A stretch of DNA of 64,000 bases from Ostreococcus lucimarinus (lineage: Eukaryota), in the NCBI GenBank assembly GCA_000092065.1, contig CP000597.1. One strand, given 5' to 3'. The position numbers and the translations under genes are program-made. Each line of letters opens with the position of its first letter. The first letter of the stretch is position 1. Under the pieces are notes generated by a model that was not told where the DNA came from, did not search any database, and saw only the letters and a program-made list of their open reading frames with translations. Below, piece after piece: positions 1 to 58,447 of this stretch.

Positions 1-1250
1 TTCGCGCGAACGGTGGGCGCCGTGTCGGCGGTGTCTTCGTCGTCGGCGTTGCCATCCTCCGCATCGCTTTCGTCGTCGTCACTCTTTGCCTTCGCTGGTT
101 TGGGATCGCAACCCTCAACGCTGTACGCGCTGCACACGTGATGAGAGCATCGCGAATACGAACTGCTCTGCGTCGCGGCCGGGGAGTCGTCGAGGTAACA
201 ACTTTGACAACCTTCGCTCGATTTTTCGACGCACCCGAGGACATCGCCGGAATCTTCCATGCAAGCCTTGTTGTATTGTCTATAAATACCGTGCTTAGAC
301 TCAATTTGCACGGGTGCACACGATGGCGTGGCCTTGACGTCGTCATCTTCCTCCTCCTCCTCGTCTTCTTCGTCTTTGATGGACGGCGTGACGCCGAGCG
401 ACGCCTCCGATGGCTTCGACTTTTTGCTAGACTTCTTACGCTTTGTCGACTTTTTCTCGTCGGTGTCATCCGTGTCGTCGACGACTGCATCATCAACGTC
501 GACATCGACGTCGTCGTCTGCGTCGAGGTCATCGTTCTCATCCTCTTCATCCTTCGTGGTTGAAGACTTTTTCTTCAAAGCTGATTTTGTCTTTGACGTC
601 TTCGACGAGGATTCCTCGGTTTCGTCGGCGACGTCGTCTACACTGCTCGTGCCCGCGGTCACGCGTTTCAAGCTTCCTTTTAAGCCTTTCAAAATCTTAT
701 CCGTCGTCGCTTTTAACGGTTGAAGCGTGGGATCAGCCGTCGTAAGCGTCCCCGCGCCACCTCTGATTTCCATCGTTCTCGGCGATGCGGCGCTCGAGTA
801 AAGCACGGCGCCGACGCCACACGCGACGACGGCGGAGACCGCGACGACGGTGTACGTGACGACGTGACTCTTAATCCCGAAAAACGACCGCCGAACCTTG
901 CGCTTGCGACCGCCATCTAGCAATGAAGCAGTCTCGCTCTCCTCGCGAGCGCGCTCGCGGTCGCGCTTCGCCTCGCGCTTGGCTTCCTTCTTGGCCAACT
1001 TTTCCGCCTTTCGGCGCGCGCGTTCCGCCTCCAAAGCGCGCCGCTCTTCTTCGCGTTTCTTTCGCGCGCGCTCTTCCTCGCGCCTCGTCAAATCAGCCTG
1101 AGAAACGAACCCGAATCCTTCCTCTTCGTCCCCGCCTCGTCGTCTCGCGCTTCGCGCCCGCTCCAACCCGCTCGCGAACTCATCGTCATCGCTCTCATCG
1201 CTGTCGACCCCGCCCAAGCGCTCGGCGACGAGTTTCGACGTCTTACGCAT
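1..1250 (-). CDS. partial gene, with its 3' end beyond the window start. The product has a basic/charged N-terminal region, one predicted transmembrane helix (VVTYTVVAVSAVVACGVGAVLY), a long poly-Asp/Glu tract and a Cys-containing tail; hypothetical membrane protein
   Basis: Manual translation of the minus strand. The frame whose ATG is the reverse complement of 1248-1250 stays open all the way to position 1. It is absent from the ORF track, presumably because there is no stop in the window. Third-position G/C bias is clear in the upstream half and weaker toward position 1. Confidence 0.4.
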   Translation of the reverse strand, partial: MRKTSKLVAERLGGVDSDESDDDEFASGLERARSARRRGGDEEEGFGFVSQADLTRREEERARKKREEERRALEAERARRKAEKLAKKEAKREAKRDRERAREESETASLLDGGRKRKVRRSFFGIKSHVVTYTVVAVSAVVACGVGAVLYSSAASPRTMEIRGGAGTLTTADPTLQPLKATTDKILKGLKGSLKRVTAGTSSVDDVADETEESSSKTSKTKSALKKKSSTTKDEEDENDDLDADDDVDVDVDDAVVDDTDDTDEKKSTKRKKSSKKSKPSEASLGVTPSIKDEEDEEEEEDDDVKATPSCAPVQIESKHGIYRQYNKACMEDSGDVLGCVEKSSEGCQSCYLDDSPAATQSSSYSRCSHHVCSAYSVEGCDPKPAKAKSDDDESDAEDGNADDEDTADTAPTVRA

Positions 1251-1900
1251 CCTTCGCCTCCGTTCGCTGTCTCTACCGAACGTGCTGTGCGACGGCGACT
1301 CGTCCCCGTCGCTCGCGCCGTCGCCGCCCGCGCGATCCCACGCGCTTCGTCGCCCCCCCCCTCCGCGCCCGTCCCCCCCGCCCGCCTCCACGTCCTCGTC
1401 GCGATCCCTCGCGAACGCATCGTCGTCGTGATCGTCGACGACGCGCGTCTCCTCGTCGCTCTCCGACGCCGTCGTCGCCGTTCGGCGCGCGTCTTCGTCG
1501 TCCGAGCTCTCGCGCGAGCGCACCGACCGCGCGTCGCTCGACGCGTTCTTCGCGCAGCACACCATGCGCGCGCGATCGGGACGCGTTCGCGCGCGCGTCC
1601 TCGTCGCTCGCCGATCGTCGTCGCGCGCGCGCGAGCGCGTCGGGGTGTTACGCGTTCCTCACGCCGGCTGGGTGTTACGCGTGCCTCACGAGGACTCTGA
1701 CGAGTCATGACTCAAGCGTAAATAATACACGTATGGACACTTGAATACGTTGGACATGTGGATATGAATCGACATACGAAACAAAAACAATCCGTTCCCG
1801 CGTTGACGGGTGAAGTGAAGATTAAATACTGTACCGTCCACGGCGTTTGAGGTTTCGGGCGGGCGCGGCGCGACTGCGGACGACGAACGACGCCGCGCGC

Positions 1901-1941
1901 GACGACGACGACGACGACGACGACGCGCGACGACCGCGTCG

Positions 1942-1974
<33 letters not shown>
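1901..1974. repeat. inverted trinucleotide repeat: (GAC)8 - 20 bp spacer - (TCG)10, capable of forming a hairpin or cruciform
   Basis: direct reading of 1901-1925 (gacgac...) and 1944-1974 (tcgtcg...). Confidence 0.9.
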
Positions 1975-1976
<2 letters not shown>

Positions 1977-2886
1977 GGGACGCGCGCGCGCGTCGCCGTC
2001 CGTCGCGCGCGCGCATCCCTCGACGCGCGCGACGACGGCCGACGCCCGACGCGCGCGCGCGCGTCGCTTGACGGAAACGACCGCGCCGACGGAAACGACG
2101 CTTCGTTCGAATTCAAACGCGCACGCGCGCCGCGCGCGCGCGACGTCGAGATTTTTCCTCGAGTGCGGACCCGCGGCGCGAAAAAAGCGCGACGCGCGGG
2201 AACCGCGGCGAAAAAGATTAATTTCCGCGTCAGCACCCGCGGCGACCCCGCGCGCGCGGCGCGCGCCCGCGATCGCGACGTTTTTCGTATATAGATGCAT
2301 CACGGGGTTCAATGCGTACACGCGCGTGGGTAAATATGTCGACACGCGTGTCGCCGCGATCGCGGGCGCGCGCCGCGCGGCGAAAATTTATCGCATTTAT
2401 CGCTCGCGCGCGGAGTCACGACTCGCCGACGCGCGAATCCCGCGAAATCCCGCGCGGGGGTGGATAATATCTTCCCGTAGTGCGTCGCGTCGATCGCCCA
2501 TGAGGGCTGTGAAAAAAACCCGCGCGCGAGATTTCGATTTTCACGAACGGTTCATGGTGTTCGTGCGCGCGCGAATGCGTGATCGCCGCGCGTCCGGCGT
2601 GGGTTCGGACGTTCGGGCGATACGAACGGACGTCCGGCGCGTGGCCCGGAGACGACGCCCGACGCGCGCGTGCGCCCGGCGCGCGTTACGCGGGGCGCGC
2701 GCGCGCGGCCGCACACGCGCGCGCACGCCGGGCGCACGCGAGCGACGCGCGCGGTTCGCGGTCGATCGATTCGAACGTCGCTCGATCGATCGACGCGCGC
2801 GCGAGACGCCGACCCGCGACGCCGACCCGACCCGCGACGTCGTTGTTAACGTCGCCGCGATCGATCGGCGTCGCGCGACGCGGGCG

Positions 2887-4379
2887 ATGATGGCGACGCC
2901 GCGCGAGCTCGACGCGCCGAGCGCGGGCTCGCCCGCGCGCGACGACGGCGCGAAAGATTTTCGTCGAACCGAATCCGTCGACGGCGAGGCCATCGCGCGC
3001 GAGCGCGCGCACTCGTTCAGCACGCAGTGCTCGTCGCAGACGACGATCGCGGACTTGGGCCAGGGGCGCGACGACGACGACGACCGCGTCGAGGACGAAC
3101 GCGTCGCGTTCGACGTCGCGCGCGATCGCGACGCGCGCGCGATCGACGAACGGGCGGAGAGAGAAACGCGCGATGCGATGGTAGCGCTCGCGCGCGCGCG
3201 CGCGGACGCGATCGGGCCGGACGGCGCGGATTTATGCGCCGACGTCGCGCGCGAGCTCCTGCGGCGCGAGCGCGCGGATCACGGGGCGTTCGTGTTGGAC
3301 GGCGCGACGGCGCATCACGCGGCGTACCGGGCGCAGTTGGTGGAGTGGATTTTGGACGTGTGCGCGGGGGAGCGGTACGGGCCGACGACGGCGGACGTCG
3401 CGATCGGATACATGGTGCGTGGACGATGCGATGCGACGCGATCAACTGTCTCGCCTCCTGGCTGGCTGATTCCGGGGGAGGGGGCCAGGGGCGATCTTGA
3501 TCTTATCTTCGCCGCGACCGACCGCGATGTTCGGACGAACGGCGAAAAAAATAAAACGTCGGAAACGATTCGAAACGCACGAACGCGCGCGATGGGGACG
3601 ATGGCGAACGATTGAACGAACGACTGACGACGAACGCGGACGCGACGAATGCGCAGGATCGAGTGTTGTCGAAAACCGTGGTGCCGAAGACGTCTTTACA
3701 TCTCGTCGCGCTGTGCTGCTTGCAGATTGCGGTGAAATACGAAGAGATTGAGGAACGTGTGCCGACGATGGCGAAACTTCGCGCGTGGACGTCGAACATG
3801 TACTCGCCGGATATCATTCAAAAGATGGAGTTGGCGGTGTTGATCGAGCTCAAATGGGAGCTCGGCATTCTGACGCCGGCGCACTTTTTGGAATCTTTCT
3901 TGACCATGATGAACGGTGGGACGACGAGCGAGGACGAAGTGGACGTCGGTGTGTGGACGCCGCAGTATCAAGAGGAGTTGAGACATTTGGTGTGTCAAAT
4001 GTACTCGTTGTGCGTGCAAGACGTGAGCTTGGCCAACGAGCTGCCGTCGCGCGTCGCCGCCGCCGTCATCGCAGCGTCGAGGTTGAACTTGGGCATCAAG
4101 CCCTTGTGTCCACCGACGCTCCGAGTTGCGGCGAACGTGACACCGCAGCAAATCTATCCTCTCGTGACGCACATGCACAGAATGTGGGAAGAAGCGTACG
4201 AAGACGACGAGACGACGATGATGGAAGCCGACGTCAAGGCCCACGCGGATTTCAACTCGCTCGCCATCGCCATTCCGCAACAAGAAGGTGTGGTGTATGC
4301 CGATAAACCCGGGTTCGAGCAGCGCATCACTGAAAACGCATCGCCGACGTGTCCGTTGGATATGCAGTGGGACGAATGA
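2887..4379 (+). CDS. D-type cyclin (cyclin N- and C-terminal folds), two exons: 2887..3414 and 3657..4379
   Basis: Two ORF-track ORFs (2068..3615 and 3612..4379) each carry half of a cyclin box. YRAQLVEWILDVCAGE...AIGYM ends exon 1 and DRVLSKTVVPKTSLHLVALCCLQIAVKYEE...ELKWELGILTPAHFLESFL starts exon 2. Joining them at GT (3415) / AG (3656) restores the conserved ...YMDRVLS... (cf. NYLDRFLS in cyclin D). The start is taken at ATG 2887 (MMATPRELD...) because the upstream part of ORF 2068 is Arg-rich low-complexity sequence. Confidence 0.8.
3415..3656 (+). other. spliceosomal intron (242 nt, phase 0) in the cyclin gene, GTGCGT...GCGCAG
   Basis: The cyclin box is interrupted by in-frame stops. 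Canonical GT/AG at these positions restores frame and conserved motif. Confidence 0.75.
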
Positions 4380-48895: not shown

Positions 48896-50515
48896 ATGCG
48901 CGAGCGACGGCTGGGGACGAGCGATGGGACGACGACGCGCGAGGACTTTGGGGCGGATCGATTGCTGATCGACGTGGCGAATTACGTCGTCGGGTACGAG
49001 ATCAAGTCGAGGGACGCGGTGAAGACGGCGAGGCACGCGATAATGGATTTCGTCGCGTGCGCGCTGCGGGGAGGAAGCGATCCGGGGTGCGCGAAATTAC
49101 TCGGACCGTGCGTGCCGGGAATCGAGTGCAAGCACGGAGCGCACGTGCCGGGGACGGAGTATTATCTCGATCCCGTGACGGCGACGTTTAACGCGACGAC
49201 GTGCGCGCGGTGGTTGGATTACAACGATTCGTTTTACGGCGCGGAGTGGGCGCATCCGAGCGACACGATTGGGGCGATTTTGAGCGTCAGCGAGTACGTC
49301 AGTCGATTGAGGAACGATCGCGGGCTGAGCGTGCTGAGCATGCGAGACGTCATCGTGGCGACGATCAAGGCGTACGAAATCGTCGGCGTGCTCGCGCTCG
49401 AGAACTCGTTCAATCAGATTGGCGTCGATCACGGACTGTTGACTCGCGTCGCCGTGGCCGCAGTGACGACGTCCATGCTCGGTGGTGGGCGATTAGAGGT
49501 GATGTACGCCACTTCGCAGGCTTTCATCGACGGCAGCGGTTTGCGATGCTTCCGACATTACCCGTGCGCGGGGACGCGAAAGGGTTGGGCGGCGGGAGAT
49601 AACGCCGCCCGAGGCGTCACTTTAGCGTTGATGACGATGAGAGGCGAAATAGGATATCTTGGTGCGCTGTCAGCGCCGGTTTGGGGATTCAACGACGTGT
49701 TTTACCGGCGTCAAGACATCGTGCTCAAGCGAGACTTTGGGGAATTCGTCATGGAAAACGTCGTCTTCAAGCCGTCGTTTCCGAGCGAGATTCACGCTCA
49801 AACCGCCATCGAGGCCGCGTTTCGATTGCATCCGCAAGTCGTCCACCGCGTGGACGAGGTTCACAGCGTCGCGGTTCACACCACACGTAGCGCTGTACGA
49901 TGCATCGATAAGACCGGGCCGCTGAACGGGCCCGCGGATCGCGATCACTGCTTGCAGTACGCCGTCGCCGTCGCGCTCCTGTACGGGAATATGACATCAG
50001 ATCATTACGAAGACTCCGTGGCGAGCGACCCGCGAGTGGATGAAATGAGACGCAAAATTCTCATCGCAGAAAATCCACAATACAGCGCCGATTACGTTGA
50101 TCCAGATCGCCGTTCTTGTTCGAATTCGATTCAAGTGCACTTTAAGGATCGCACGAGCACGAACAAGTTTGAGGTCGAGTACCCAGTTGGACATCGTCGC
50201 AGAAGAATGGAGGGGTTTCCAGCGTTAGAAAAGAAGTTCATATCGTCTTTACACACAAAGTTTCCACCGGAGCGTGCGGGATTCATCTTTGAACGAGTCA
50301 CCGACGCGCAAATTTTCGACGCCTTGACACCGATGGACTTCATGGAATTGTTCAACGCCACGCCGCATCCCGTGCTCTTACCGCCGATGCGCGCGGCACC
50401 TGGAGTTTTTGATTACACTCCGATAGATAGTCGAGCGTCGACCCTAGTTCCTCGTCTCACGGATGGTACCGCAGAGACTCGAGCGGTGGGAGACGGCGCA
50501 GACGCGCGCGGTTAG
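48896..50515 (+). CDS. MmgE/PrpD family protein (2-methylcitrate dehydratase / cis-aconitate decarboxylase family)
   Basis: Full-length similarity to PrpD architecture (N-terminal helical domain ...DFVACALRGGSDPG...; C-terminal ...HSVAVHTTRSAV...). 539 aa is typical. Confidence 0.75.
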   Translation: MRERRLGTSDGTTTREDFGADRLLIDVANYVVGYEIKSRDAVKTARHAIMDFVACALRGGSDPGCAKLLGPCVPGIECKHGAHVPGTEYYLDPVTATFNATTCARWLDYNDSFYGAEWAHPSDTIGAILSVSEYVSRLRNDRGLSVLSMRDVIVATIKAYEIVGVLALENSFNQIGVDHGLLTRVAVAAVTTSMLGGGRLEVMYATSQAFIDGSGLRCFRHYPCAGTRKGWAAGDNAARGVTLALMTMRGEIGYLGALSAPVWGFNDVFYRRQDIVLKRDFGEFVMENVVFKPSFPSEIHAQTAIEAAFRLHPQVVHRVDEVHSVAVHTTRSAVRCIDKTGPLNGPADRDHCLQYAVAVALLYGNMTSDHYEDSVASDPRVDEMRRKILIAENPQYSADYVDPDRRSCSNSIQVHFKDRTSTNKFEVEYPVGHRRRRMEGFPALEKKFISSLHTKFPPERAGFIFERVTDAQIFDALTPMDFMELFNATPHPVLLPPMRAAPGVFDYTPIDSRASTLVPRLTDGTAETRAVGDGADARG

Positions 50516-50617
50516 CAACGCTTCGGCGACACCCCTTGTTGTAATGGTAGCATGAAACACGAACGCGAGCCGTCAGCGATTGAGTTTGCGCCAAGCAATC
50601 GAAACGACGCGATTTAG

Positions 50618-50654
50618 TGATGCGATTCAGTGATGCGATTCAGTGATGCGATGG
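50618..50654. repeat. 13-bp tandem repeat (GTGATGCGATTCA)x3 in the 3' region of the PrpD-family gene
   Basis: direct reading. Confidence 0.85.
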
Positions 50655-50788
50655 CTAAAAAACGATGAAGTAATGATCACTTCCGTGACAAGTCAGATAA
50701 CAACTCTGAAGCTCCTCGCTTTTTTCAGCGAGAGCGTAACTACCCTCCGCTAACGGCTAATAGTAATATCGTTCCTTAGGGTAAATAT

Positions 50789-51651
50789 TTACCCTTGGAC
50801 TTGGCGCTGGTCAACGGCGCACGCAGCTTCGGACGCCGGGCGGTGAGCCAAGAACGCGGAGCATTGCACTTGCTTGATGTTGTCGAAGCCAGCGACGCGG
50901 ACGTAGCATTCCGGGAAGCACTTGATGCAGGTGTTGATTTCCGCAATGACTTCATCCGGGTTTTGGCAGCCGTACATGGGGAGCTTCCACATAACCCAGT
51001 AACGGTTGTCGTAGTAACCGGCGTTGATGGAGGTGTCCATGTTCGCCCAGCCGTGGCCGTCGGTGTACGCGTGCGCGGAGTCTTCGAACTCGATGCACGG
51101 GGTCCAGCCGTTGTTCAACAAGTATTGCACTTGCTTGGAGATTTCGGCGTCGGAGAGCGGCGGCAAGAAGGAGAAGGTCTCGAACATCCTGCGTGACGAC
51201 GTAAAAACGAAGCGAAATCGGTCAGTACAGCGCTCGCGCGCGTCGTTCGGACCCTCGTCGGTGACCGAGTTAAAACCCTAAAACCCAATAACCCAGCGCG
51301 CGTTCCTGACCGCACGATCGCCGCCGAACGAGCCCTCGCGCGCACCCCCCACGCCGACCCCTCGCACCGCGATCGCGGGCGTTAAAACGTCGAAGAAGAA
51401 CTTTCTTCAACGAAATATCGCCCTCGCGGCGTCGTCGAGGCGCGCGCGCGCGCGCAGAGGTCGCGCAACGTTCGCGCGATGCGGCGCTATCCTCTCGCGA
51501 AAGATACGCGAAGGTTCGATCGATCGCGCGCGTTCACGTACTTGTTGCCGTGCGGGCGCCAGATCATCATGGACTTGGCGTTGGCGACCTTGCCGGTGGT
51601 GACGGCGACGGTCTTCGCGACTTGCGCGGAAGCTTGGGTGATGGCGGACAT
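50789..51651 (-). CDS. rbcS: RuBisCO small subunit, copy A (exon 1 51542..51651, intron 51189..51541, exon 2 50789..51188)
   Basis: Exon 2 = MFETFSFLPPLSDAEISKQVQYLLNNGWTPCIEFE...YYDNRYWVMWKLPMYGC...VRVAGFDNIKQVQ, canonical rbcS. Exon 1 (MSAITQASAQVAKTVAVTTGKVANAKSMMIWRPHGN) is a transit peptide plus the conserved MxxW...NK motif. GTACGT donor and ...CACGCAG acceptor rejoin ...GNK|MFETF in phase 2. Confidence 0.9.
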
Positions 51652-51716
51652 GATTGCGTGCGTGTGGATTAGTGCGGCGCGCGCGCCGCGCGCGCGCGTC
51701 GGGGCGGCGCGAGGTG

Positions 51717-51731
51717 CCGAATGTCCGAATC
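51717..51731 (+). promoter_or_regulatory. copy of the recurrent motif CCGAATGTCCGAATC, ~185 bp upstream of rbcS copy B ATG, in the shared divergent promoter of rbcS A/B
   Basis: direct reading. The same 13-mer core occurs at 6899, 56041 and 58426, all on the + strand. Confidence 0.4.
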
Positions 51732-51914
51732 ACGATCGCCCGCCCCTTAAAACGTATTCCAATCGTCTCTACAACTATATGATTTCGATTTTGACGGGAT
51801 AATCTCGACGAGATAAATTCGAGCGCGCGTTTTCGCGCGAATCGTGTGGATTTGCTGACTCGGTGCCGATCACGCGAGGGCGTCGGCACTTTCCAGCACG
51901 CTTATCTCGAAATC

Positions 51915-52806
51915 ATGTCCGCCATCACCCAAGCCTCCGCGCAAGTCGCGAAGACCGTCGCCGTCACCACCGGCAAGGTCGCCAACGCCAAGTCCATGAT
52001 GATCTGGCGCCCGCACGGCAACAAGTACGTGAACGCGCGCGCGCGACGGGACGCGAACGTAATCCGAAAAAGCGACGCGCGCGGATTGCTCGGCCGGTCG
52101 TGAAGAAGGGGTCTTCGAGGGGCGCGCGAGGGCGTCGTGACGCGCGCGATGAATGAAAAAGATGCCTGAAGTTTTTATGCATCGGATCGTCAGCGCGCGG
52201 TGGGCGTCGCGCGTCGACGCGAGCGTCGGCACGGGGTTCGAGTGAGCCCCCCCAGGGGGGAGGCCTCCGAGATCCATCGTAACCGCCTTCGGAGATTTCT
52301 TCTTTAATTTTCCTCGCGACGCGTGGTTGCGCGTTGAAATCGACGGAAAACGATGCACAGAATAATTACTGACCCGATTTCGCTTCGTTTTTACGTCGTC
52401 ACGCAGGATGTTCGAGACCTTCTCCTTCTTGCCGCCGCTCTCCGACGCTGAAATCTCCAAGCAAGTGCAATACTTGTTGAACAACGGCTGGACCCCGTGC
52501 ATCGAGTTCGAAGACTCCGCGCACGCGTACACCGACGGCCACGGCTGGGCGAACATGGACACCTCCATCAACGCCGGTTACTACGACAACCGTTACTGGG
52601 TTATGTGGAAGCTCCCCATGTACGGCTGCCAAAACCCGGATGAAGTCATTGCGGAAATCAACACCTGCATCAAGTGCTTCCCGGATTGCTACGTCCGCGT
52701 CGCTGGCTTCGACAACATCAAGCAAGTGCAATGCTCCGCGTTCTTGGCTCACCGCCCGGCGTCCGAAGCTGCGTGCGCCGTTGACCAGCGCCAAGTCCAA
52801 GGGTAA
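51915..52806 (+). CDS. rbcS: RuBisCO small subunit, copy B (exon 1 51915..52024, intron 52025..52406, exon 2 52407..52806)
   Basis: Same exon sequences as copy A (one Glu/Asp difference in exon 2), GTACGT donor, CACGCAG acceptor. Confidence 0.9.
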
Positions 52807-53417
52807 ACGTCTCGACGTTTCCTGCGAACGCCCGCGCGCGTCTGTAGACGCGCGCTGCCGCGGACTCACGCTCGTGTAGAGATGTAGTCCTATTGAATTA
52901 CATACGAAGACTTCACGTCACTTCACGCGTTAACGCTTCGCCCTCGCCCTCGCGCGTCGCGCATCTCCGGACGCTCTCTCTCCCTCTCGCGCGGACCGAC
53001 CGCCGCGCAGCACACCCGGTCGTAACCGTTCCATTTGACCGTTCCAATCCCTTCTCGAACGCGCGCGAAGATTTTCCGAGATCGAGGACTCGCCGCGGTT
53101 CGCGACTCAAGAAATCTAGATCACGCCGTGAGATCTTCGCCCGCCGTCGTTTCCGCCACACGTTTCCGCGCCGCCGGGCGAAAATGAGGCTTTAGGGTTT
53201 ACGCGCGTCGTATGGGCAAACAGTTCGCGAGCACTCTGCGTAGGCCCCCTGAAGGGGGCTTTTTCCTCTATTTTCTTACATACAGCTTACATAATTTATA
53301 ATACAGAGAAGATCCCATATAAAGTACATCACGAATACGAATACGAACGCCCTCACAACCCCCTGACGCGCGCGCCGCCGCGGCCGAGCGACATAATCGC
53401 ACGCGTATCTCGAGATC

Positions 53418-54537
53418 ATGTCTGCCATCACCCAAGCCTCCGCGCAAGTCGCGAAGACCGTCGCCGTCACCACCGGCAAGGTCGCCAACGCCAAGTCCAT
53501 GATGATCTGGCGCCCGCACGGCAACAAGTACGTATAGTTTACGACGTGTTTCGACGCGATCGCGCGCCGCGTCCGATCGCGCCGCATCCGACGCCCCGAG
53601 GGACGATCGTCGTCGTGTTCGCGCGCGTCCGCGCGCGCGTCGCCGACGCGATCGCGGTCGATCTCTTCGATGATTTTCATCGCATCGATCGCGACGCGCG
53701 AAAGCGGCGCGCGCGCAACGTGGACGCGTGCGAACCGTCGATCACGGCGCGGTCGCGGGGTGATCGGATAAGCGCGAAAACCCAAACGCGAAAACCCAAA
53801 CGGGAACCCGAGCGGGAATTTTCGGGTGTTTGCGTCGAACGGCGCGGCGTTCGACGATTTAGCGTGCGCGATGATTTGTGCATCGTCGAGTCGGGCGTCG
53901 AGACGTCGAGACGTCGTCGCCGCGCGCGCGGCGGGGTCGGTCGGCGCGCGGATCATCCGTAGATTATCATCGACCGGACGATCGGCCGTCGACCGACCTT
54001 TGAATGCTCGGCGCGGGAGGGTGTTTCGTACTCGGGTCGGACGCGGTCCACGAGCGACGTCACGGTTGGGCGAGCGTAGAAGACTCGCGCGAGCGCTGTA
54101 CTGACCGATTTCGCTTCGTTTTTACGTCGTCACGCAGGATGTTCGAGACCTTCTCCTTCTTGCCGCCGCTCTCCGACGCCGAAATCTCCAAGCAAGTGCA
54201 ATACTTGTTGAACAACGGCTGGACCCCGTGCATCGAGTTCGAAGACTCCGCGCACGCGTACACCGACGGCCACGGCTGGGCGAACATGGACACCTCCATC
54301 AACGCCGGTTACTACGACAACCGTTACTGGGTTATGTGGAAGCTCCCCATGTACGGCTGCCAAAACCCGGATGAAGTCATTGCGGAAATCAACACCTGCA
54401 TCAAGTGCTTCCCGGATTGCTACGTCCGCGTCGCTGGCTTCGACAACATCAAGCAAGTGCAATGCTCCGCGTTCTTGGCTCACCGCCCGGCGTCCGAAGC
54501 TGCGTGCGCCGTTGACCAGCGCCAAGTCCAAGGGTAA
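53418..54537 (+). CDS. rbcS: RuBisCO small subunit, copy C (exon 1 53418..53527, intron 53528..54137, exon 2 54138..54537)
   Basis: Exons identical to copy B apart from a synonymous change in codon 2. The intron is 610 nt and unrelated in sequence except for the last ~40 nt. Confidence 0.9.
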
Positions 54538-54695
54538 ACGTCTCGACGTTTCCTGCGAACGCCCGCGCAAGTCGACTCAACTCAGTATTATGAAGATTTT
54601 TTCCATTTGATTTACGTAGGAAATTGCTTTGTCTGTCATAATGAGATGCATACTTACATATTAAAATGTCCCCGAATTTCTCGACGCGACTCGGA

Positions 54696-55997
54696 TCAGC
54701 GAAGCTCGCCGAGCGCCGCACGCGAGAAGACTGCCCGTGTGCTCTCGTCGCCCGCGCATACCTCTGACGAACTCGAGTCGTCGGAATTTTTGCTGAAGTC
54801 TAATGGTAATGTCAGTTCTAAGTGTCTCTTCGCGCCTGAGTATTTGAATTTGAAATCAAACGTGCGTCGAGAACGTTCACGAAGCTCGCGCTTGCCCACG
54901 ACGGCGGCGCTCGGCGGCGTCCCGGTGGTTACGACCCAACTCCGCGCTCGCTCGACGTCTCGGAGCTGCATCGTCGCCAACTCGTCCTGGCTTAAAGGCT
55001 GAGCTGTGATGGGTTTATGATTCAACCAAACGTTCACGAGGAACGTCACGCGCTTAGACGACTGCGGCGTACCGCGCGCGAACTCACTCGGGGCGCCGTG
55101 CAAGAACCGTCCGTCAAATGTGATTTGCTTCCCCCACTTTGGCCACGAAACGACGCACTCGGTGATATCACCGCACACCCCGACGTCGCCGTTTTCGTAA
55201 TCACAATTCACCTTCGTCGGACGGTTCACGACCACCGTCGGCGTCCCTCCGTCGCAAAAGTACGTCACCGTGCCGAGTTGCGGATGCGCGTTGACGCCCG
55301 CGCCCTCGAGGGCGTAGTCTTTGTCCCAGTGCCACCCGATCTCATCACCCTCATCGATGACTTGCGTCCACCACTCGGCGCCCGATTTCGAGGGATCATA
55401 CCTCGCTCTCTCGTCTTCGTCGCGCGCGCCGGCGTCTCGTTCCGCGCGCGCCGCGGCTTCGCGCGTCGCCCTTCGAAACGTCTCTCGCGCTAAATACTCG
55501 AGCGCGCACCTCGGTTCGCTCTCGGCGTTCACCCAAAACGTCCTCCCACTCGACGTCCCGCTCGTCCTTCTCTTCCCTCTCGCATTTTTCGCCGTGTGCG
55601 CCGCCTCGCAATCCTTCGTCAACCGCCTCGCGTCGTCGTCGTCGAGCGCGTCTCGCCCCGCGAACGTCGTCGCGCTCGTCGTCTCGTACGTCAGGTATCG
55701 GTTCACTTCGCACGCGATTCGTCCGAGTTCATCCACCGCGAGTTCGAGCTCGGACGTCGCGCTCGCGTCGTCGTCGCTCTCGTCGCTCTCGTCGCTCTCG
55801 CTCTCGCTCTCGCTCTCGCTCGTCGTCGCCTCGCGCGCGTCGTTCGCGCGCCTCGTCCGTCGCGTCGTCATCCGCGCCTCGTCGTCGCGTCGTCGACGTC
55901 GCGCGTTCGCCGCCCCGCGTCGCGCGCGCCGGTCGCCCGACGCGCGACGGGCGTCGCGCGTTCGCCGCGTCGACGGCCGCCGGGCTCGAGCGCGCAA
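54696..55997 (-). CDS. hypothetical protein with a 2OG-Fe(II) oxygenase/cupin-like motif pattern (GWHWDKDY ... RFLHG ... R..F.VNVW) and an N-terminal (SE)n/(SDE)n acidic repeat
   Basis: 1.3 kb codon-biased ORF. HxD...H...R spacing read directly; family not assigned. Confidence 0.5.
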   Translation of the reverse strand: MRARARRPSTRRTRDARRASGDRRARRGAANARRRRRDDEARMTTRRTRRANDAREATTSESESESESDESDESDDDASATSELELAVDELGRIACEVNRYLTYETTSATTFAGRDALDDDDARRLTKDCEAAHTAKNARGKRRTSGTSSGRTFWVNAESEPRCALEYLARETFRRATREAAARAERDAGARDEDERARYDPSKSGAEWWTQVIDEGDEIGWHWDKDYALEGAGVNAHPQLGTVTYFCDGGTPTVVVNRPTKVNCDYENGDVGVCGDITECVVSWPKWGKQITFDGRFLHGAPSEFARGTPQSSKRVTFLVNVWLNHKPITAQPLSQDELATMQLRDVERARSWVVTTGTPPSAAVVGKRELRERSRRTFDFKFKYSGAKRHLELTLPLDFSKNSDDSSSSEVCAGDESTRAVFSRAALGELR

Positions 55998-56061
55998 GCG
56001 GACCCGAATACCACTAAAGCGTAGCGCTGTATACTCATACCCGAATGTCCGAACATCCGCG
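55993..56061 (+). repeat. ~70-bp dispersed repeat, copy 1 (ends with CCGAATGTCCGAACATCCGCG), ~240 bp upstream of the PiT gene ATG
   Basis: About 90% identical to 58377..58447: GCAAGCGGACCC(G/A)AATACCACTAAAGC(G/A)TAG..CT.TATACTCATA(C/T)CCGAATGTCCGAACATCCGCG. Confidence 0.8.
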
Positions 56062-56302
56062 TGAAAGTGCTACACTTTGTCAGGAAAATGTCGATTCACA
56101 GTCGATTCACAGTTGATGAACATTGCAACAAGTTGCAAAAATCGAGTTCGATTGGAACCAATCGCGTCTTCTTTCGAGGTTCACGAACCGTGAATTCGTT
56201 CCGCGAGGAATATTCTCGGAATCTCGCCTTTTCAAATTCCCGCGTGGGAATATGCGCAGTCGCCGCAAGAACACGTCGCGCGCCGTCTCGTCACGCACAA
56301 CG

Positions 56303-58052
56303 ATGAGCTCTTCGGATGCGCTCGCTCAAGCGTCCCGCCACCTTTTGGCCGGCGCTACTGAAACCAAGAGATTCGAATGGATCGTCGTTTGCGGCGGTTT
56401 CCTCGCCTTCTTCGCCGCCTTTGGCATCGGTACGCACACGATGCGCGCACTTTTTACCTTTCGCGTTCATAGGCTTTAATGACACGGCTTGGTCGCACAC
56501 GTGCGATTGGAGTGTATTAGAAGCATCACTGACGTCGTGCGATCAATCGTATTTACCTACAGGTGCCAACGACGTCGCGAATGCGTTCGCCACCTCTGTC
56601 GGGTCCGGCGCGTTGACCATTAAAAACGCTGTAGTCCTCGCCGCGATCTTTGAATTCTGTGGTGCCATGTTCATGGGCGGTCACGTCGTCAACACAATTC
56701 GCAAGGGCATTGCTAACCAGAAATGCTTCGCCGGTACCGGTGGTGCCAACGATCCCGGCCTCTTGATGTACGGCTGCCTATGCGTCATTTTTGCCGTCGC
56801 CATCTGGCTCGTCGTCGCATCTGCCTTCGAAATGGCCGTCTCCACGACGCACTCGTGCGTTGGTGGTATGATTGGAATGACTTTGGTCGCGCGTGGTAGC
56901 GAGTGTGTCATTTGGACCAAGAAAGCGGACGAATTCCCGTACGTCAAAGGCGTCGTCGCCGTCATCATCTCCTGGCTCTTGTCCCCGGTCATCTCTGGCG
57001 CCTTTGCGTTCGTCTTCTTCGTGACCCTGCGTACTCTCGTCATGCGTTCCGAACATTCTTATTCTCGTACTGCCGTCGCGTTCCCAGTGTTGCTTGCGTG
57101 CACTCTCATCATCAACATCTTCTTCATCGTGTACAAGGGCGCCAAGTTCCTTGAGCTCGACGACACACCGGTCGGTACGGCGTGCGCCATCGCGTTCGGC
57201 ATCGGCGGAGGATGTGGCATTGTTGCGTACTTCTTCGTTACCCCTTACATCCTCAAGACGACCGATGAGCTCTTCGAGAAGCAACAGCTCGAAAAGGCGG
57301 AGCGTGGTTCGGGCAAGAAGGCCGAAGAGAAGGTCGTCCGTCAACCGCGCGAGTATCCTGTCGGGGTCTTTGGCGCGCCGCGTCGCATGTGGTACGCTCT
57401 GCAAGATCATCTTGAATCTTCACTCACCCACAAGGCTGAAGACATTCTTGACGAAGACATGGCTGTATTGGCGATCCACGAAAACGCCGAAAAGTTTGAC
57501 GAAAAGACTGAACTTTGCATGCGATACTTGCAAATCCTCACCGCGTGCTGCGACTCGTTCGCGCACGGCGCCAACGATGTGGCCAACTCTATCGGTCCCT
57601 TCGCCTCTATGGTAGTCGTCTTCAAGAGCGGTAAAGTTTCGAAGGAAGCTGAAATGGGCGACGATTCATATTGGATTCTCGGTCTTGGCGCTGCCGGCAT
57701 CGTCTGTGGCCTCGCCTTGTACGGCTACAAGATTCTTCACGCTCTCGGTACCAAGATTGCCAAGCTCACCCCGAGTCGCGGTATCTGCATCGAGCTTGGT
57801 GCGGCTTGCGTCATCATCATGGGATCCCGTCTCGGCTGGCCGCTGTCTACCACTCACTGCCAAGTTGGTGCCACCGTCGGCGTCGCCCTACTCGAAGGCC
57901 GCAAGGGCATCAACTGGTTCATCATCGGTAAAACTGTGTTCGGCTGGATCATCACCCTCGTCATCGTCGGCTTCTCCACGGCGGCGTTCTTCGCACAAGG
58001 TGCCTACGCTCCGATGAAGAGCTACCCGTGCTACATCACAGGTAGTTGCTAA
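56303..58052 (+). CDS. PiT-family inorganic phosphate transporter (exon 1 56303..56429, intron 56430..56562, exon 2 56563..58052)
   Basis: Two PiT signature motifs GANDVANAF (at the exon junction) and HGANDVANSIGP, with about 10-12 TM segments. Exon 1 (MSSSDALAQASRHLLAGATETKRFEWIVVCGGFLAFFAAFGIG) lies in a different frame (ORF 56123..56479). GTACGC...CCTACAG intron (133 nt, phase 1) recreates ...AFGIGANDVANAF. Confidence 0.85.
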
Positions 58053-58376
58053 ATGGGCCCTCCTAGCTTACCCCCTCCCTAGGTTACCCCCGACGGAGTT
58101 ATTCTTTGAATACTCTCGGTGTTTTTCCCGCTATTGATAGCGATGAGATTCTCGACAAATTCGCGTTCAGTGGGGTCTGAAAATTTGCCGTCGCCCACGA
58201 GAGCGTCGAATTGCTCCGCCAACGTCCGTCGAATTGCTCCGCCAACGTCAGCGATGGCGCGCCTGTGCGAGAGAATTCAGACTCAACAATACTTCGCGCG
58301 CGCGCTGTTTTGGTTCCAACCGGAGCCGCACGGATCAATTGCACACCGCGTAATCGCCCTGAGTGGTATCGATACC

Positions 58377-58447
58377 ACGCAAGCGGACCCAAATACCACT
58401 AAAGCATAGTACTATATACTCATATCCGAATGTCCGAACATCCGCGC
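58377..58447 (+). repeat. ~70-bp dispersed repeat, copy 2, ~95 bp upstream of ORF 58542
   Basis: see copy 1. Confidence 0.8.

What the first reader, a model, noticed from the sequence alone, without database searches (positions are those of the whole stretch)
50789..54537. Three-copy rbcS cluster: a head-to-head inverted pair plus a tandem copy
Three RuBisCO small-subunit genes lie within 3.7 kb. Copy A is on the minus strand and its start codon (51651) faces copy B (ATG 51915) across a 263-bp shared divergent promoter. Copy C follows B in direct orientation with a ~1.5 kb period. The supplied ORF track shows the same antisense ORF (MMEVSMFAQPWPSVYACAESS...) three times, which is the footprint of this arrangement. 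The coding exons are essentially identical across the three copies (one Glu/Asp difference, one synonymous change). Such local amplification of a highly expressed photosynthesis gene is potentially relevant to dosage and co-regulation. Collapsed or mis-assembled copies are a common assembly problem at loci like this.
Basis: seen in the sequence. Interest (0 to 1): 0.65.

Follow-up and report, generated by a model that had tools for sequence, protein, structure and literature searches.

The report
Three-copy Rubisco small-subunit gene cluster
A marine green picoalga (Ostreococcus lucimarinus or a near-identical strain) carries three almost identical copies of the Rubisco small-subunit gene side by side, kept alike by copying between them; this is real but is an ordinary arrangement for this gene family.

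Summary
Window 50789-54537 contains three complete, intron-containing rbcS genes: A on the minus strand, B and C on the plus strand. A and B sit head-to-head across 263 bp, and C follows B. Each gene has two exons (110 + 400 nt) and one phase-2 intron of 353, 382 or 610 nt. Each encodes a 169-aa precursor.

The three coding sequences differ at only 4 of 510 sites: three synonymous and one Glu/Asp at codon 130. The intron interiors and flanks cannot be aligned.

It is not an assembly artefact. Eleven independent environmental contigs of 11-362 kb show the same PrpD>-<A-B>-C> order. Spliced transcript contigs carry all three copy-specific 3' UTRs.

The B/C protein equals XP_001422165.1 of Ostreococcus lucimarinus. 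Related contigs and Micromonas pusilla have three or four copies at the same locus next to PrpD, and the O. tauri annotation points to at least two.

Copy-specific 5' leaders are conserved by position between species. The exons, however, are 99.4-100% identical within a genome and only 75-87% identical between lineages. The Glu/Asp variant also sits in different copies in different haplotypes. This is concerted evolution by exon-limited gene conversion in a dosage cluster, a known kind of system. Interest is low to moderate.

The parts
50789..51188 (-). rbcS copy A, exon 2 (400 nt including the TAA stop). Carries GAA (Glu) at codon 130.
   Evidence: spliced model translates to 169 aa.
51189..51541 (-). 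Copy A intron, 353 nt, GT..AG, phase 2. The interior is unalignable with the B and C introns. The last 52 nt are identical to C and the last 33 nt identical to B. Contains the TACTGAC branch-point-like motif.
51542..51651 (-). Copy A exon 1 (110 nt): a 27-aa transit peptide plus the first 10 mature residues.
   Evidence: mature start aligned to residue 1 of PDB RbcS chains.
51652..51914 (.). 263-bp divergent intergenic region between the A and B start codons. Includes both short 5' leaders (about 26-33 nt each) and a central AT-rich patch at 51730-51819 (GC 0.35-0.43).
   Evidence: A-type leader in transcript contig L008. B-type leader in protein P0026, which comes from a source labelled 'merc'.
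51915..52024 (+). Copy B exon 1.
52025..52406 (+). Copy B intron, 382 nt.
52407..52806 (+). Copy B exon 2 (Asp at codon 130; private synonymous T at CDS position 153).
52807..53417 (+). B-C intergenic region. Contains the B 3' UTR (at least 114 nt, 52807-52920), a GGCCCCCTGAAGGGGGC palindrome followed by a T-run (53243-53265), the AT-rich patch upstream of C (53260-53349, GC 0.27-0.32) and the C-type 5' leader.
53418..53527 (+). Copy C exon 1 (private synonymous T at CDS position 6).
53528..54137 (+). Copy C intron, 610 nt.
54138..54537 (+). Copy C exon 2 (Asp at codon 130).
50667..50788 (-). Copy A 3' UTR, at least 122 nt, as seen in spliced transcript contigs.
   Evidence: L052 matches 122/122 and L006 matches 109/109.
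54538..54675 (+). Copy C 3' UTR (about 138 nt). The first 31 nt are shared with B.
   Evidence: L054 matches 127/138.
48896..50515 (+). Neighbouring MmgE/PrpD (2-methylcitrate dehydratase) gene, convergent with copy A. It serves as the synteny anchor of the cluster across Mamiellales.

Best explanation
This is a genuine nuclear rbcS mini-cluster of an Ostreococcus (O. lucimarinus or a near-identical strain).

**What the genes make.** Three transcribed genes each encode a 169-aa precursor: a 27-aa chloroplast transit peptide plus a 142-aa mature small subunit. By established knowledge of the family, this subunit is imported into the chloroplast and assembles with plastid-encoded RbcL into L8S8 Rubisco. 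The three products are the same protein apart from Glu/Asp at codon 130. The cluster therefore most likely supplies gene dosage for one of the cell's most highly expressed genes, not different isoforms.

**Promoters.** A and B are transcribed outward from a 263-bp spacer with one central AT-rich patch. C has its own AT-rich upstream patch.

**How the copies stay alike.** The triplication is old. It predates the split between this species and at least two related lineages. Yet the exons stay nearly identical within each genome, because ectopic gene conversion keeps homogenising two short homology blocks:

- exon 1, extended by a few bases on each side;
- exon 2, plus the last 33-52 nt of the intron and 1-31 nt beyond the stop codon.

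The unalignable intron interiors and flanks bound these tracts.

**Shown here:** the gene structure, splicing, transcription of all three copies, the age of the arrangement, within-genome homogeneity, and a polymorphism shared among paralogs.

**Inferred:** the dosage function, sharing of the promoter, and conversion as the molecular process.
For: **Structure.** Gene models, 510-nt CDS, 4 variable sites, unalignable introns.

**Family.** Pfam PF00101 E = 3e-39. PDB RbcS E = 7e-50, aligned from mature residue 1.

**Splicing and expression.** Ten intronless transcript contigs join exon 1 to exon 2 exactly as modelled. They carry A-, B- and C-specific 3' UTRs, and A- and C-type leaders. The B-type leader is seen in P0026.

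**Reality of the three copies.** Eleven independent contigs of 11-362 kb share the same order and orientation.

**Antiquity.**
- L013 has (-)(+)(+) and the same downstream gene.
- L014 has PrpD, then (-)(+)(+)(+), then the same downstream gene.
- M. pusilla CCMP1545 has three copies next to PrpD.
- Copy-specific leaders (A-type GCACTAATCC, B-type CACTTT, C-type GGCATAATCGC) and extended flank matches are conserved by position between the window and L013/L014.

**Concerted evolution.**
- Core exon-2 identity is 99.4-100% within a genome and 75-87% between lineages.
- M. pusilla shows the same pattern of identical exons and divergent introns.

**Ongoing exchange.**
- Codon-130 Glu/Asp over copies A, B, C is distributed as EDD, EDE, EEE or DDD in different haplotypes.
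- CDS position 6 in copy B is polymorphic between the state fixed in A and the state fixed in C.
- A divergent exon-2 allele with the same 16 differences sits at position A in one contig and at position B in another.
Against: - No experiment here shows that three copies are needed for Rubisco abundance, or that A and B share regulatory elements.
- Strong purifying and codon-usage selection (GC3 = 0.85) must contribute to exon conservation and cannot be fully separated from conversion.
- The EEE and DDD haplotypes come from short-read scaffolds, where repeat consensus collapse is possible.
- The two contigs carrying the divergent allele could be strain chimeras produced by metagenome assembly.
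Confidence: 0.85

Rival explanations
1. Assembly artefact: one or two real copies were duplicated or mis-joined by the assembler.
For: Short-read assemblies break at this locus. L004 (same strain, 100% identical over 2,018 nt) stops about 30 nt into exon 2 of A. L018 and L019 also stop inside the repeat. Chimeric short contigs exist.
Against: Each copy has its own intron, leader and 3' flank. Eleven independent contigs up to 362 kb show the identical three-copy order. Transcripts carry three different 3' UTRs. Related species have 3-4 copies at the same locus.
Confidence: 0.01
2. Recent, lineage-specific duplications explain the identity, with no gene conversion needed.
For: Paralogs cluster by genome, which is also what very recent duplication would give. 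Copy number does vary: 4 in L014, and 2 versus 3 in Bathycoccus.
Against: Intron interiors and flanks are unalignable and differ in length (353/382/610 nt), while the exons differ by 0.4-0.6%. A recent duplication would leave the introns alike. Position-specific leaders and flanks are conserved between the window and L013/L014, whose coding sequences are only about 86% identical. The same (-)(+)(+) order lies between the same two neighbours.
Confidence: 0.03
3. Exon identity is maintained only by purifying selection on protein sequence and codon usage in a very highly expressed gene, without sequence exchange.
For: [quoted passage not shown] The identical intron segment begins at a branch-point-like CTGAC motif in both this species and M. 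pusilla, which suggests functional constraint there.
Against: Among codons encoding the same amino acid, 12-30% differ between lineages but only 0-1% within a genome. Synonymous sites are therefore not frozen. Identity also extends 31 nt past the stop codon between B and C. The same polymorphisms (codon 130, CDS position 6, the 16-site allele) appear in different paralogs in different haplotypes. Selection alone does not produce that pattern.
Confidence: 0.07
4. The copies are retained for differential regulation (for example by light, diel phase or nutrients) rather than for dosage. A/B and C have unrelated upstream regions.
For: The upstream regions of A, B and C share no extended similarity beyond about 20-30 nt of leader. 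Leader types are conserved by position across species, which implies constraint on copy-specific 5' sequences. Differential regulation of rbcS family members is established in plants (reference titles listed in PMC9833052).
Against: There are no expression data by condition here. Transcript contigs show all three UTR types, but they come from mixed environmental samples. In L014, three of the four copies carry the same A-type leader.
Confidence: 0.25

Closest known systems
rbcS tandem arrays of green algae and plants: Chlamydomonas RBCS1/RBCS2, Arabidopsis RBCS1B-3B, tomato RBCS3A-3C, rice OsRbcS2-5 (review PMC9833052)
   Same: Several linked nuclear rbcS genes lie within a few kb. They encode the same or almost the same mature protein. 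Copies are more alike within a species than between species. Dosage is the usual rationale.
   Different: Here one copy is inverted, giving a head-to-head pair with a 263-bp spacer, rather than a purely direct array. The genes have a single intron. The host is a haploid picoalga with a compact genome. The evidence for conversion is unusually clean, whereas in angiosperms it is disputed: Yamada et al. 2019 (PMC6859733) found no significant conversion signal and favoured birth-and-death evolution.
The annotated rbcS loci of other Mamiellales: M. pusilla CCMP1545 scaffold GG663751 with three genes next to PrpD, and O. tauri with CEG00799 next to PrpD CEG00798
   Same: Same synteny block (coproporphyrinogen oxidase, SAYSvFN, PrpD, rbcS cluster). 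Same intron position after ...NK in M. pusilla. M. pusilla also shows the same pattern of identical exons and divergent introns. For O. tauri only the protein models and their accessions were seen.
   Different: Read from PrpD, M. pusilla has (-)(-)(+), whereas the window has (-)(+)(+). The O. tauri annotation contains a 325-aa model that fuses two copies. Bathycoccus has 2-3 direct copies at a different locus.
Concerted evolution of small gene families by ectopic gene conversion (general model: Ohta; Nei and Rooney; Mano and Innan, as cited in PMC6859733)
   Same: Paralogs are homogenised within genomes. Polymorphisms are shared between paralogs. Tract ends coincide with the ends of homology.
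   Different: There is nothing mechanistically different. This is a compact three-member case that includes an inverted member.

Membership tests
Rubisco small subunit (RbcS, Pfam PF00101), nuclear green-type | Full-length RuBisCO_small domain scoring above the curated threshold | tested here: met
   133.4 bits against a cut-off of 27, profile positions 1-97 of 97.
Rubisco small subunit (RbcS, Pfam PF00101), nuclear green-type | Sequence homology to structurally solved RbcS chains over the whole mature protein | tested here: met
   E = 7e-50 to 1e-47 against green-algal RbcS chains (8q04, 1ir2, 7jfo, 1gk8). The alignment starts at mature residue 1.
Rubisco small subunit (RbcS, Pfam PF00101), nuclear green-type | N-terminal chloroplast transit peptide in front of the conserved mature N-terminus | tested here: met
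   27 residues precede MMIWRP, which aligns with the mature MQVWTP start of solved chains. The cleavage site is inferred, not measured.
Rubisco small subunit (RbcS, Pfam PF00101), nuclear green-type | Assembly with RbcL into the L8S8 holoenzyme | not testable with these tools
   Needs biochemistry. Inferred from homology.
Linked rbcS multigene cluster under concerted evolution | Two or more complete, transcribed copies within a few kb | tested here: met
   Three intact ORFs within 3.75 kb. Spliced transcripts carry each copy's 3' UTR.
Linked rbcS multigene cluster under concerted evolution | Duplication older than speciation, yet paralogs more alike within genomes than orthologs between genomes | tested here: met
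   Positional conservation of leaders and flanks. Identity is 99.4-100% within genomes and 75-87% between lineages.
Linked rbcS multigene cluster under concerted evolution | Polymorphisms shared among paralogs (direct trace of exchange) | tested here: met
   Codon-130 patterns EDD, EDE, EEE and DDD; polymorphism at CDS position 6 in copy B; a 16-site allele at position A or position B. Caveat: some of these contigs are short-read scaffolds or possible strain chimeras.
Linked rbcS multigene cluster under concerted evolution | All members in direct (tandem) orientation | tested here: not met
   Copy A is inverted relative to B and C. This is not a defining requirement of the kind, only the usual layout.
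Bidirectional (divergent) promoter gene pair | Head-to-head genes with less than 1 kb between their starts, both transcribed | tested here: met
   263 bp between the ATGs. A-type leader in transcript contig L008 and B-type leader in P0026.
Bidirectional (divergent) promoter gene pair | Shared cis-elements that drive both genes (co-regulation) | not testable with these tools
   There is only a single central AT-rich patch at 51730-51819. No sequence conservation of the spacer with L013 or L014 beyond the leaders.
Invertible segment bounded by inverted repeats (flip-flop isomers) | Long, near-identical inverted repeats flanking the segment | tested here: met
   457-nt arms at 50788-51244 and 54082-54538, differing at one base, 2,837 nt apart.
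Invertible segment bounded by inverted repeats (flip-flop isomers) | Both orientations present in one species | tested here: not met
   0 of 11 long contigs are inverted. The junction predicted by inversion (C intron - exon 2 - A flank - PrpD) occurs only in short contigs (L015, L022, L024, L030). It occurs about as often as the parental junction and as a third, non-inversion junction (3-4: 3: 3). That ratio is what repeat-induced chimeras would give.

The most novel reading that the evidence does not exclude
The two outer copies (A and C) form a 457-bp, near-perfect inverted repeat around a 2.8-kb segment. A crossover between them would invert that segment. It would flip copy B and swap the promoter, exon 1 and intron halves of A and C without damaging any gene. 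The result is exactly the (-)(-)(+) order seen at the syntenic locus of Micromonas pusilla. On this reading the cluster is a naturally invertible cassette, and part of the O. lucimarinus population may carry the inverted isomer. The inverted isomer predicts a junction of C intron - exon 2 - A flank - PrpD. Four short environmental contigs show that junction.
Probability: 0.12. Interest if true: 0.5.

Novelty: new member of a known kind. Interest (0 to 1): 0.27.

Why it matters
As a discovery it matters little. Linked, near-identical rbcS copies are a textbook feature, and the genes are already modelled in the O. lucimarinus reference as 'predicted protein'.

It has practical value in three ways:

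- It marks a place where short-read assemblies break or make chimeras, and where annotation fuses copies. The O. tauri 325-aa model is an example.
- It shows that RNA-seq quantification of rbcS in Ostreococcus must use UTRs or introns to tell the copies apart.
- It offers a compact, well-sampled natural case of exon-limited gene conversion that includes an inverted member. The case could be used to measure conversion rates and tract lengths in a haploid marine alga for which many environmental genomes exist.

Tried and rejected
- **Spliced protein look-up.** I used the exon-2 ORFs and homolog ids instead.
- **Non-coding RNA.** Rfam scans of the cluster (E-value mode) and of the whole window (gathering threshold) found nothing credible. 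There is no intronic snoRNA or similar that would explain the different introns.
- **Intron homology.** Local alignments of intron interiors scored slightly above mononucleotide shuffles. The excess corresponds to (CG)n low-complexity runs of about 16-21 matched bases, so I did not take it as homology.
- **Organism name.** The PrpD search and a paper search for SRR1179203 did not give a name. The cluster-member look-up finally did.
- **Inversion polymorphism.** I looked for inversion isomers in environmental data. Recombinant junctions exist in short contigs, but I rejected them as evidence for two reasons. All three possible exits from the repeat occur about equally often, and all 11 long contigs are parental. 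One contig from the same scan, L017, is a demonstrable chimera of rbcS cDNA with bacterial clpP and trigger-factor genes.
- **Literature.** Searches found no description of the Mamiellales rbcS cluster.
- **Not used.** The sigma-70 promoter and terminator scan was not run, because the organism is a eukaryote.
Full report
**1. Observation**

The region was read directly and screened for repeats and ORFs. Exon-2-sized blocks are repeated three times:
- 50788-51244, inverted against 54082-54538 (457 nt);
- 50788-51221, inverted against 52374-52807 (434 nt);
- a direct B/C repeat beginning at 52374 and 54105.

Exon-1-sized blocks of 119-139 nt are likewise repeated three times. BLAST of the unit and of the protein against the whole window finds exactly three copies and no fourth.

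Gene models with canonical GT..AG introns:

| Copy | Strand | Exon 1 | Intron | Exon 2 |
|---|---|---|---|---|
| A | minus | 51542-51651 | 51189-51541 (353 nt) | 50789-51188 |
| B | plus | 51915-52024 | 52025-52406 (382 nt) | 52407-52806 |
| C | plus | 53418-53527 | 53528-54137 (610 nt) | 54138-54537 |

Each CDS is 510 nt (169 aa), and the intron is in phase 2 within codon 37. The two start codons of A and B are 263 bp apart.

The three CDS differ at four sites:
- position 6, private to C, synonymous;
- position 21, private to A, synonymous;
- position 153, private to B, synonymous;
- position 390, GAA (Glu) in A against GAT (Asp) in B and C.

The count of synonymous differences (three, not one) and the 'about 1.5 kb period' (1503 bp for exon 1, 1731 bp for exon 2) need minor correction. 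The thrice-repeated antisense ORF is simply the reverse frame of exon 2.

**2. What the genes are**

- The spliced protein matches Pfam RuBisCO_small over the whole profile (E = 3e-39).
- From residue 28 (MMIWRP...) it aligns with residue 1 of mature green-algal RbcS chains in the PDB (E = 7e-50 to 1e-47).
- The precursor is therefore a 27-aa transit peptide plus a 142-aa mature subunit.
- The B/C protein is identical to XP_001422165.1, annotated 'predicted protein [Ostreococcus lucimarinus CCE9901]'.
- A short-read assembly (SRR1179203, L004) is 100% identical to the window over 2,018 nt.
- The window is therefore O. lucimarinus or a near-identical strain. Its GC content is 63.7%.

**3. Reality of the three copies**

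*Short-read contigs.* Those from the same strain or species stop inside exon 2. L004 ends about 30 nt into the repeat, and L018 and L019 end within it.

*Long contigs.* Looking up the exon-2 ORFs in the public contig index returned eleven independent records of 11-362 kb, from JGI and ENA metagenomes. All show the same order:

PrpD - A 3' flank - exon 2(-) - A intron - exon 1(-) - spacer - exon 1(+) - B intron - exon 2(+) - B flank/C upstream - exon 1(+) - C intron - exon 2(+) - C flank - downstream gene

Identity to the window is about 97-99%. The cluster is not an artefact.

**4. Expression and splicing**

Ten intronless contigs of 537-941 bp join exon 1 to exon 2 exactly at the predicted junction (...GGCAACAA|GATGTTC...). 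They must derive from mRNA. They carry copy-specific sequences as follows:

| Feature | Copy A | Copy B | Copy C |
|---|---|---|---|
| 3' UTR | L006 109/109, L052 122/122 | L005 114/114, L055 112/113 | L054 127/138 |
| 5' leader | L008 | protein P0026 (from a source labelled 'merc') begins with the translation of the B leader | most contigs |

Several of these contigs combine markers of different copies. With near-identical paralogs this is expected from assembly, so I use them only as evidence that each UTR type is transcribed.

**5. Anatomy of the similarity**

Identity between copies is confined to two blocks:
- **Exon 1 block:** 3-4 nt upstream of the ATG to 6-17 nt into the intron.
- **Exon 2 block:** from 33 nt (B against A or C) or 52 nt (A against C) upstream of the acceptor, to 1 nt (A) or 31 nt (B against C) past the stop codon.

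Other points:
- Intron interiors and outer flanks give no alignment beyond (CG)n low complexity.
- The conserved intron tail starts at a TACTGAC branch-point-like motif.
- AT-rich patches stand out in a 64%-GC background. One sits at the centre of the A/B spacer (51730-51819, GC 0.35-0.43). A second sits 70-150 nt upstream of C (53260-53349, GC 0.27-0.32). Others lie in the 3' flanks.
- No Rfam family matches the cluster or the window.

**6. Relatives**

| Lineage | Locus | Copies and orientation |
|---|---|---|
| Micromonas pusilla CCMP1545 (L001) | next to PrpD, collinear flanks on both sides | three copies; read from PrpD (-)(-)(+), against (-)(+)(+) in the window |
| L013 (CDS about 86% identical, GC 61.5%) | same downstream gene | (-)(+)(+) |
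| L014 | PrpD and the same downstream gene | (-)(+)(+)(+), four copies; the first is frameshifted in a low-coverage contig |
| O. tauri | rbcS next to PrpD by consecutive accessions (CEG00798, CEG00799) | not resolved; one model fuses two copies into 325 aa |
| Bathycoccus | a different locus | two (L002) or three (L009) direct copies |

M. pusilla has the same intron position. It also shows the same pattern: identical exons, unalignable introns, and identity resuming at a CTGAC motif.

**7. Concerted evolution**

- In the 351-nt core of exon 2, paralogs are 99.4-100% identical within the window, within M. pusilla and within L013. Between lineages they are only 75-87% identical.
- Among codons for the same amino acid, 12-30% differ between lineages but 0-1% within a genome.
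- The copies nevertheless have positional orthologues. The A-type leader (GCACTAATCC) occurs in the minus-strand copy of L013 and L014. The B-type (CACTTT) occurs in the middle copy of L013. The C-type (GGCATAATCGC) occurs in the last copy of L013 and L014.
- BLAST matches of each window copy extend furthest into the flanks of the copy at the same position.
- The triplication is therefore older than these species splits, and the exons have been homogenised since.

**8. Population evidence for continuing exchange**

Across the long contigs, codon 130 over copies A, B and C reads:

| Pattern (A, B, C) | Contigs |
|---|---|
| E, D, D | the window and five contigs |
| E, D, E | two |
| E, E, E | two scaffolds |
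| D, D, D | two (one scaffold and c11998, whose copy A carries the divergent allele described below) |

Further observations:
- Position 6 of copy B is either the A state or the C state.
- Position 21 stays private to A (absent from the divergent A copy of c11998).
- A divergent exon-2 allele has 16 differences, seven of them amino-acid replacements. It is found at position A in ERZ10646630 contig_11998 and at position B in ERZ10646569 contig_27864.
- In each case that allele is embedded in diverged but position-appropriate introns and flanks. Both contigs also lack window 55996-58383.
- Whether those two contigs are real recombinant haplotypes or strain chimeras cannot be decided here. Either way, paralogs of that lineage share the same substitutions.

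These paralog-shared polymorphisms are what ectopic gene conversion predicts. Selection alone does not predict them.

**9. Inversion idea, tested and not supported for the present population**

A and C are inverted repeats, so a crossover between them would invert the 2.8 kb in between. That yields exactly the M. pusilla order.

A metagenome scan with A's 3' flank, and a look-up of the 177-aa ORF that reads from C's intron into exon 2, found these junction types in short contigs:

| Junction | Contigs | Meaning |
|---|---|---|
| C intron - exon 2 - A flank - PrpD | L015, L022, L024, L030 | predicted by inversion |
| C intron - exon 2 - C flank | L023, L025, L028 | parental |
| C intron - exon 2 - B flank | L026, L027, L031 | a third type, not predicted by inversion |

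The near-equal use of all three exits is what random resolution of a repeat longer than the assembly k-mer would give. One contig from the same scan, L017, is a proven chimera of rbcS cDNA with bacterial clpP and trigger factor. All eleven long contigs are parental. I therefore treat the recombinant junctions as probable artefacts. I keep inversion only as a plausible explanation for the difference between genera.

**10. Comparison with what is known, and verdict**

- Tandem arrays of nearly identical rbcS genes are described for Chlamydomonas, Arabidopsis, tomato, rice and others (review PMC9833052).
- Concerted evolution versus birth-and-death has been debated for angiosperm rbcS (PMC6859733).
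- I found no paper in the searchable library that describes the Mamiellales cluster. The genes are, however, present in the published reference annotations.
- The finding is therefore a real, well-behaved member of a known kind. Its distinctive traits are the inverted member and an unusually clear, population-level trace of exon-limited conversion.
- It deserves a low-to-moderate score, not the 0.65 first assigned.

Noticed in passing
window 50617-50652 (3' flank of copy A): A 13-nt tandem repeat, GTGATGCGATTCA, is present in about 2.8 copies. Environmental contigs of the same species have this flank 13 nt shorter (255 against 268 nt aligned, about 95% identity). The likely cause is that the repeat number is polymorphic.
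   Followed up: partly
window 55996-58383: This segment of about 2.4 kb holds a PHO4-family phosphate transporter gene in the collinear contigs. It is absent from two environmental contigs (L033 = ERZ10646630 contig_11998; L036 = ERZ10646569 contig_27864) that are otherwise 97-99% identical. It is a presence/absence variant just beyond the cluster's downstream neighbour.
   Followed up: partly
L033 4370-4769 (copy A) and L036 4297-4696 (copy B): A divergent 'type-2' exon-2 allele shares 16 differences from the window. These include D50P, S54A, S74A, N86G, T89S, I125V and Q164K. It occurs at position A in one contig and position B in another. Protein P0007 (58 member sequences) carries only D50P, which suggests mosaic alleles. 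These could be real haplotypes or strain chimeras.
   Followed up: partly
window 53243-53265 and 52246-52260: G/C palindromes. GGCCCCCTGAAGGGGGC followed by TTTTT lies between B and C, just before C's AT-rich patch. A similar GCCCCCCCAGGGGGG lies inside the B intron. The first is unique in the window. Similar CCCCC/GGGGG motifs appear upstream of rbcS copies in L014. Their function is unknown.
   Followed up: partly
L017 (JGI Ga0247566_1001361), 1-3004: This contig is a chimera. Spliced rbcS cDNA (positions 431-1053) is fused to bacterial-looking ClpP (198 aa) and trigger-factor-like (301 aa) ORFs. It is a caution about chimeras in these environmental assemblies.
   Followed up: yes
O. tauri protein CEG00799.1 / XP_022840588.1 (P0248): This 325-aa annotated 'small chain' is two rbcS copies fused head to tail (...RPAS-AK-MSAVAQ...). 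It is a gene-model error caused by the tandem copies.
   Followed up: partly
L003 (JGI 3300052691), 253-807: An O. tauri-like rbcS lies 200 bp from a convergent PrpD and has no intron. The contig may be a metatranscriptome contig joined through overlapping 3' UTRs, or it may reflect a real intron loss.
   Followed up: no
L009 8665-10329 versus L002: Bathycoccus-like contigs differ in rbcS copy number, with three against two direct copies. In the three-copy version a 554-aa minus-strand ORF with no Pfam hit lies between copies 1 and 2.
   Followed up: no
window 54696-55997 (minus strand): The cluster's downstream neighbour is a 433-aa ORF rich in Arg/Asp/Glu/Ser low-complexity sequence, with no Pfam match. 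It is conserved at this position in L013, L014 and partly in M. pusilla.
   Followed up: no
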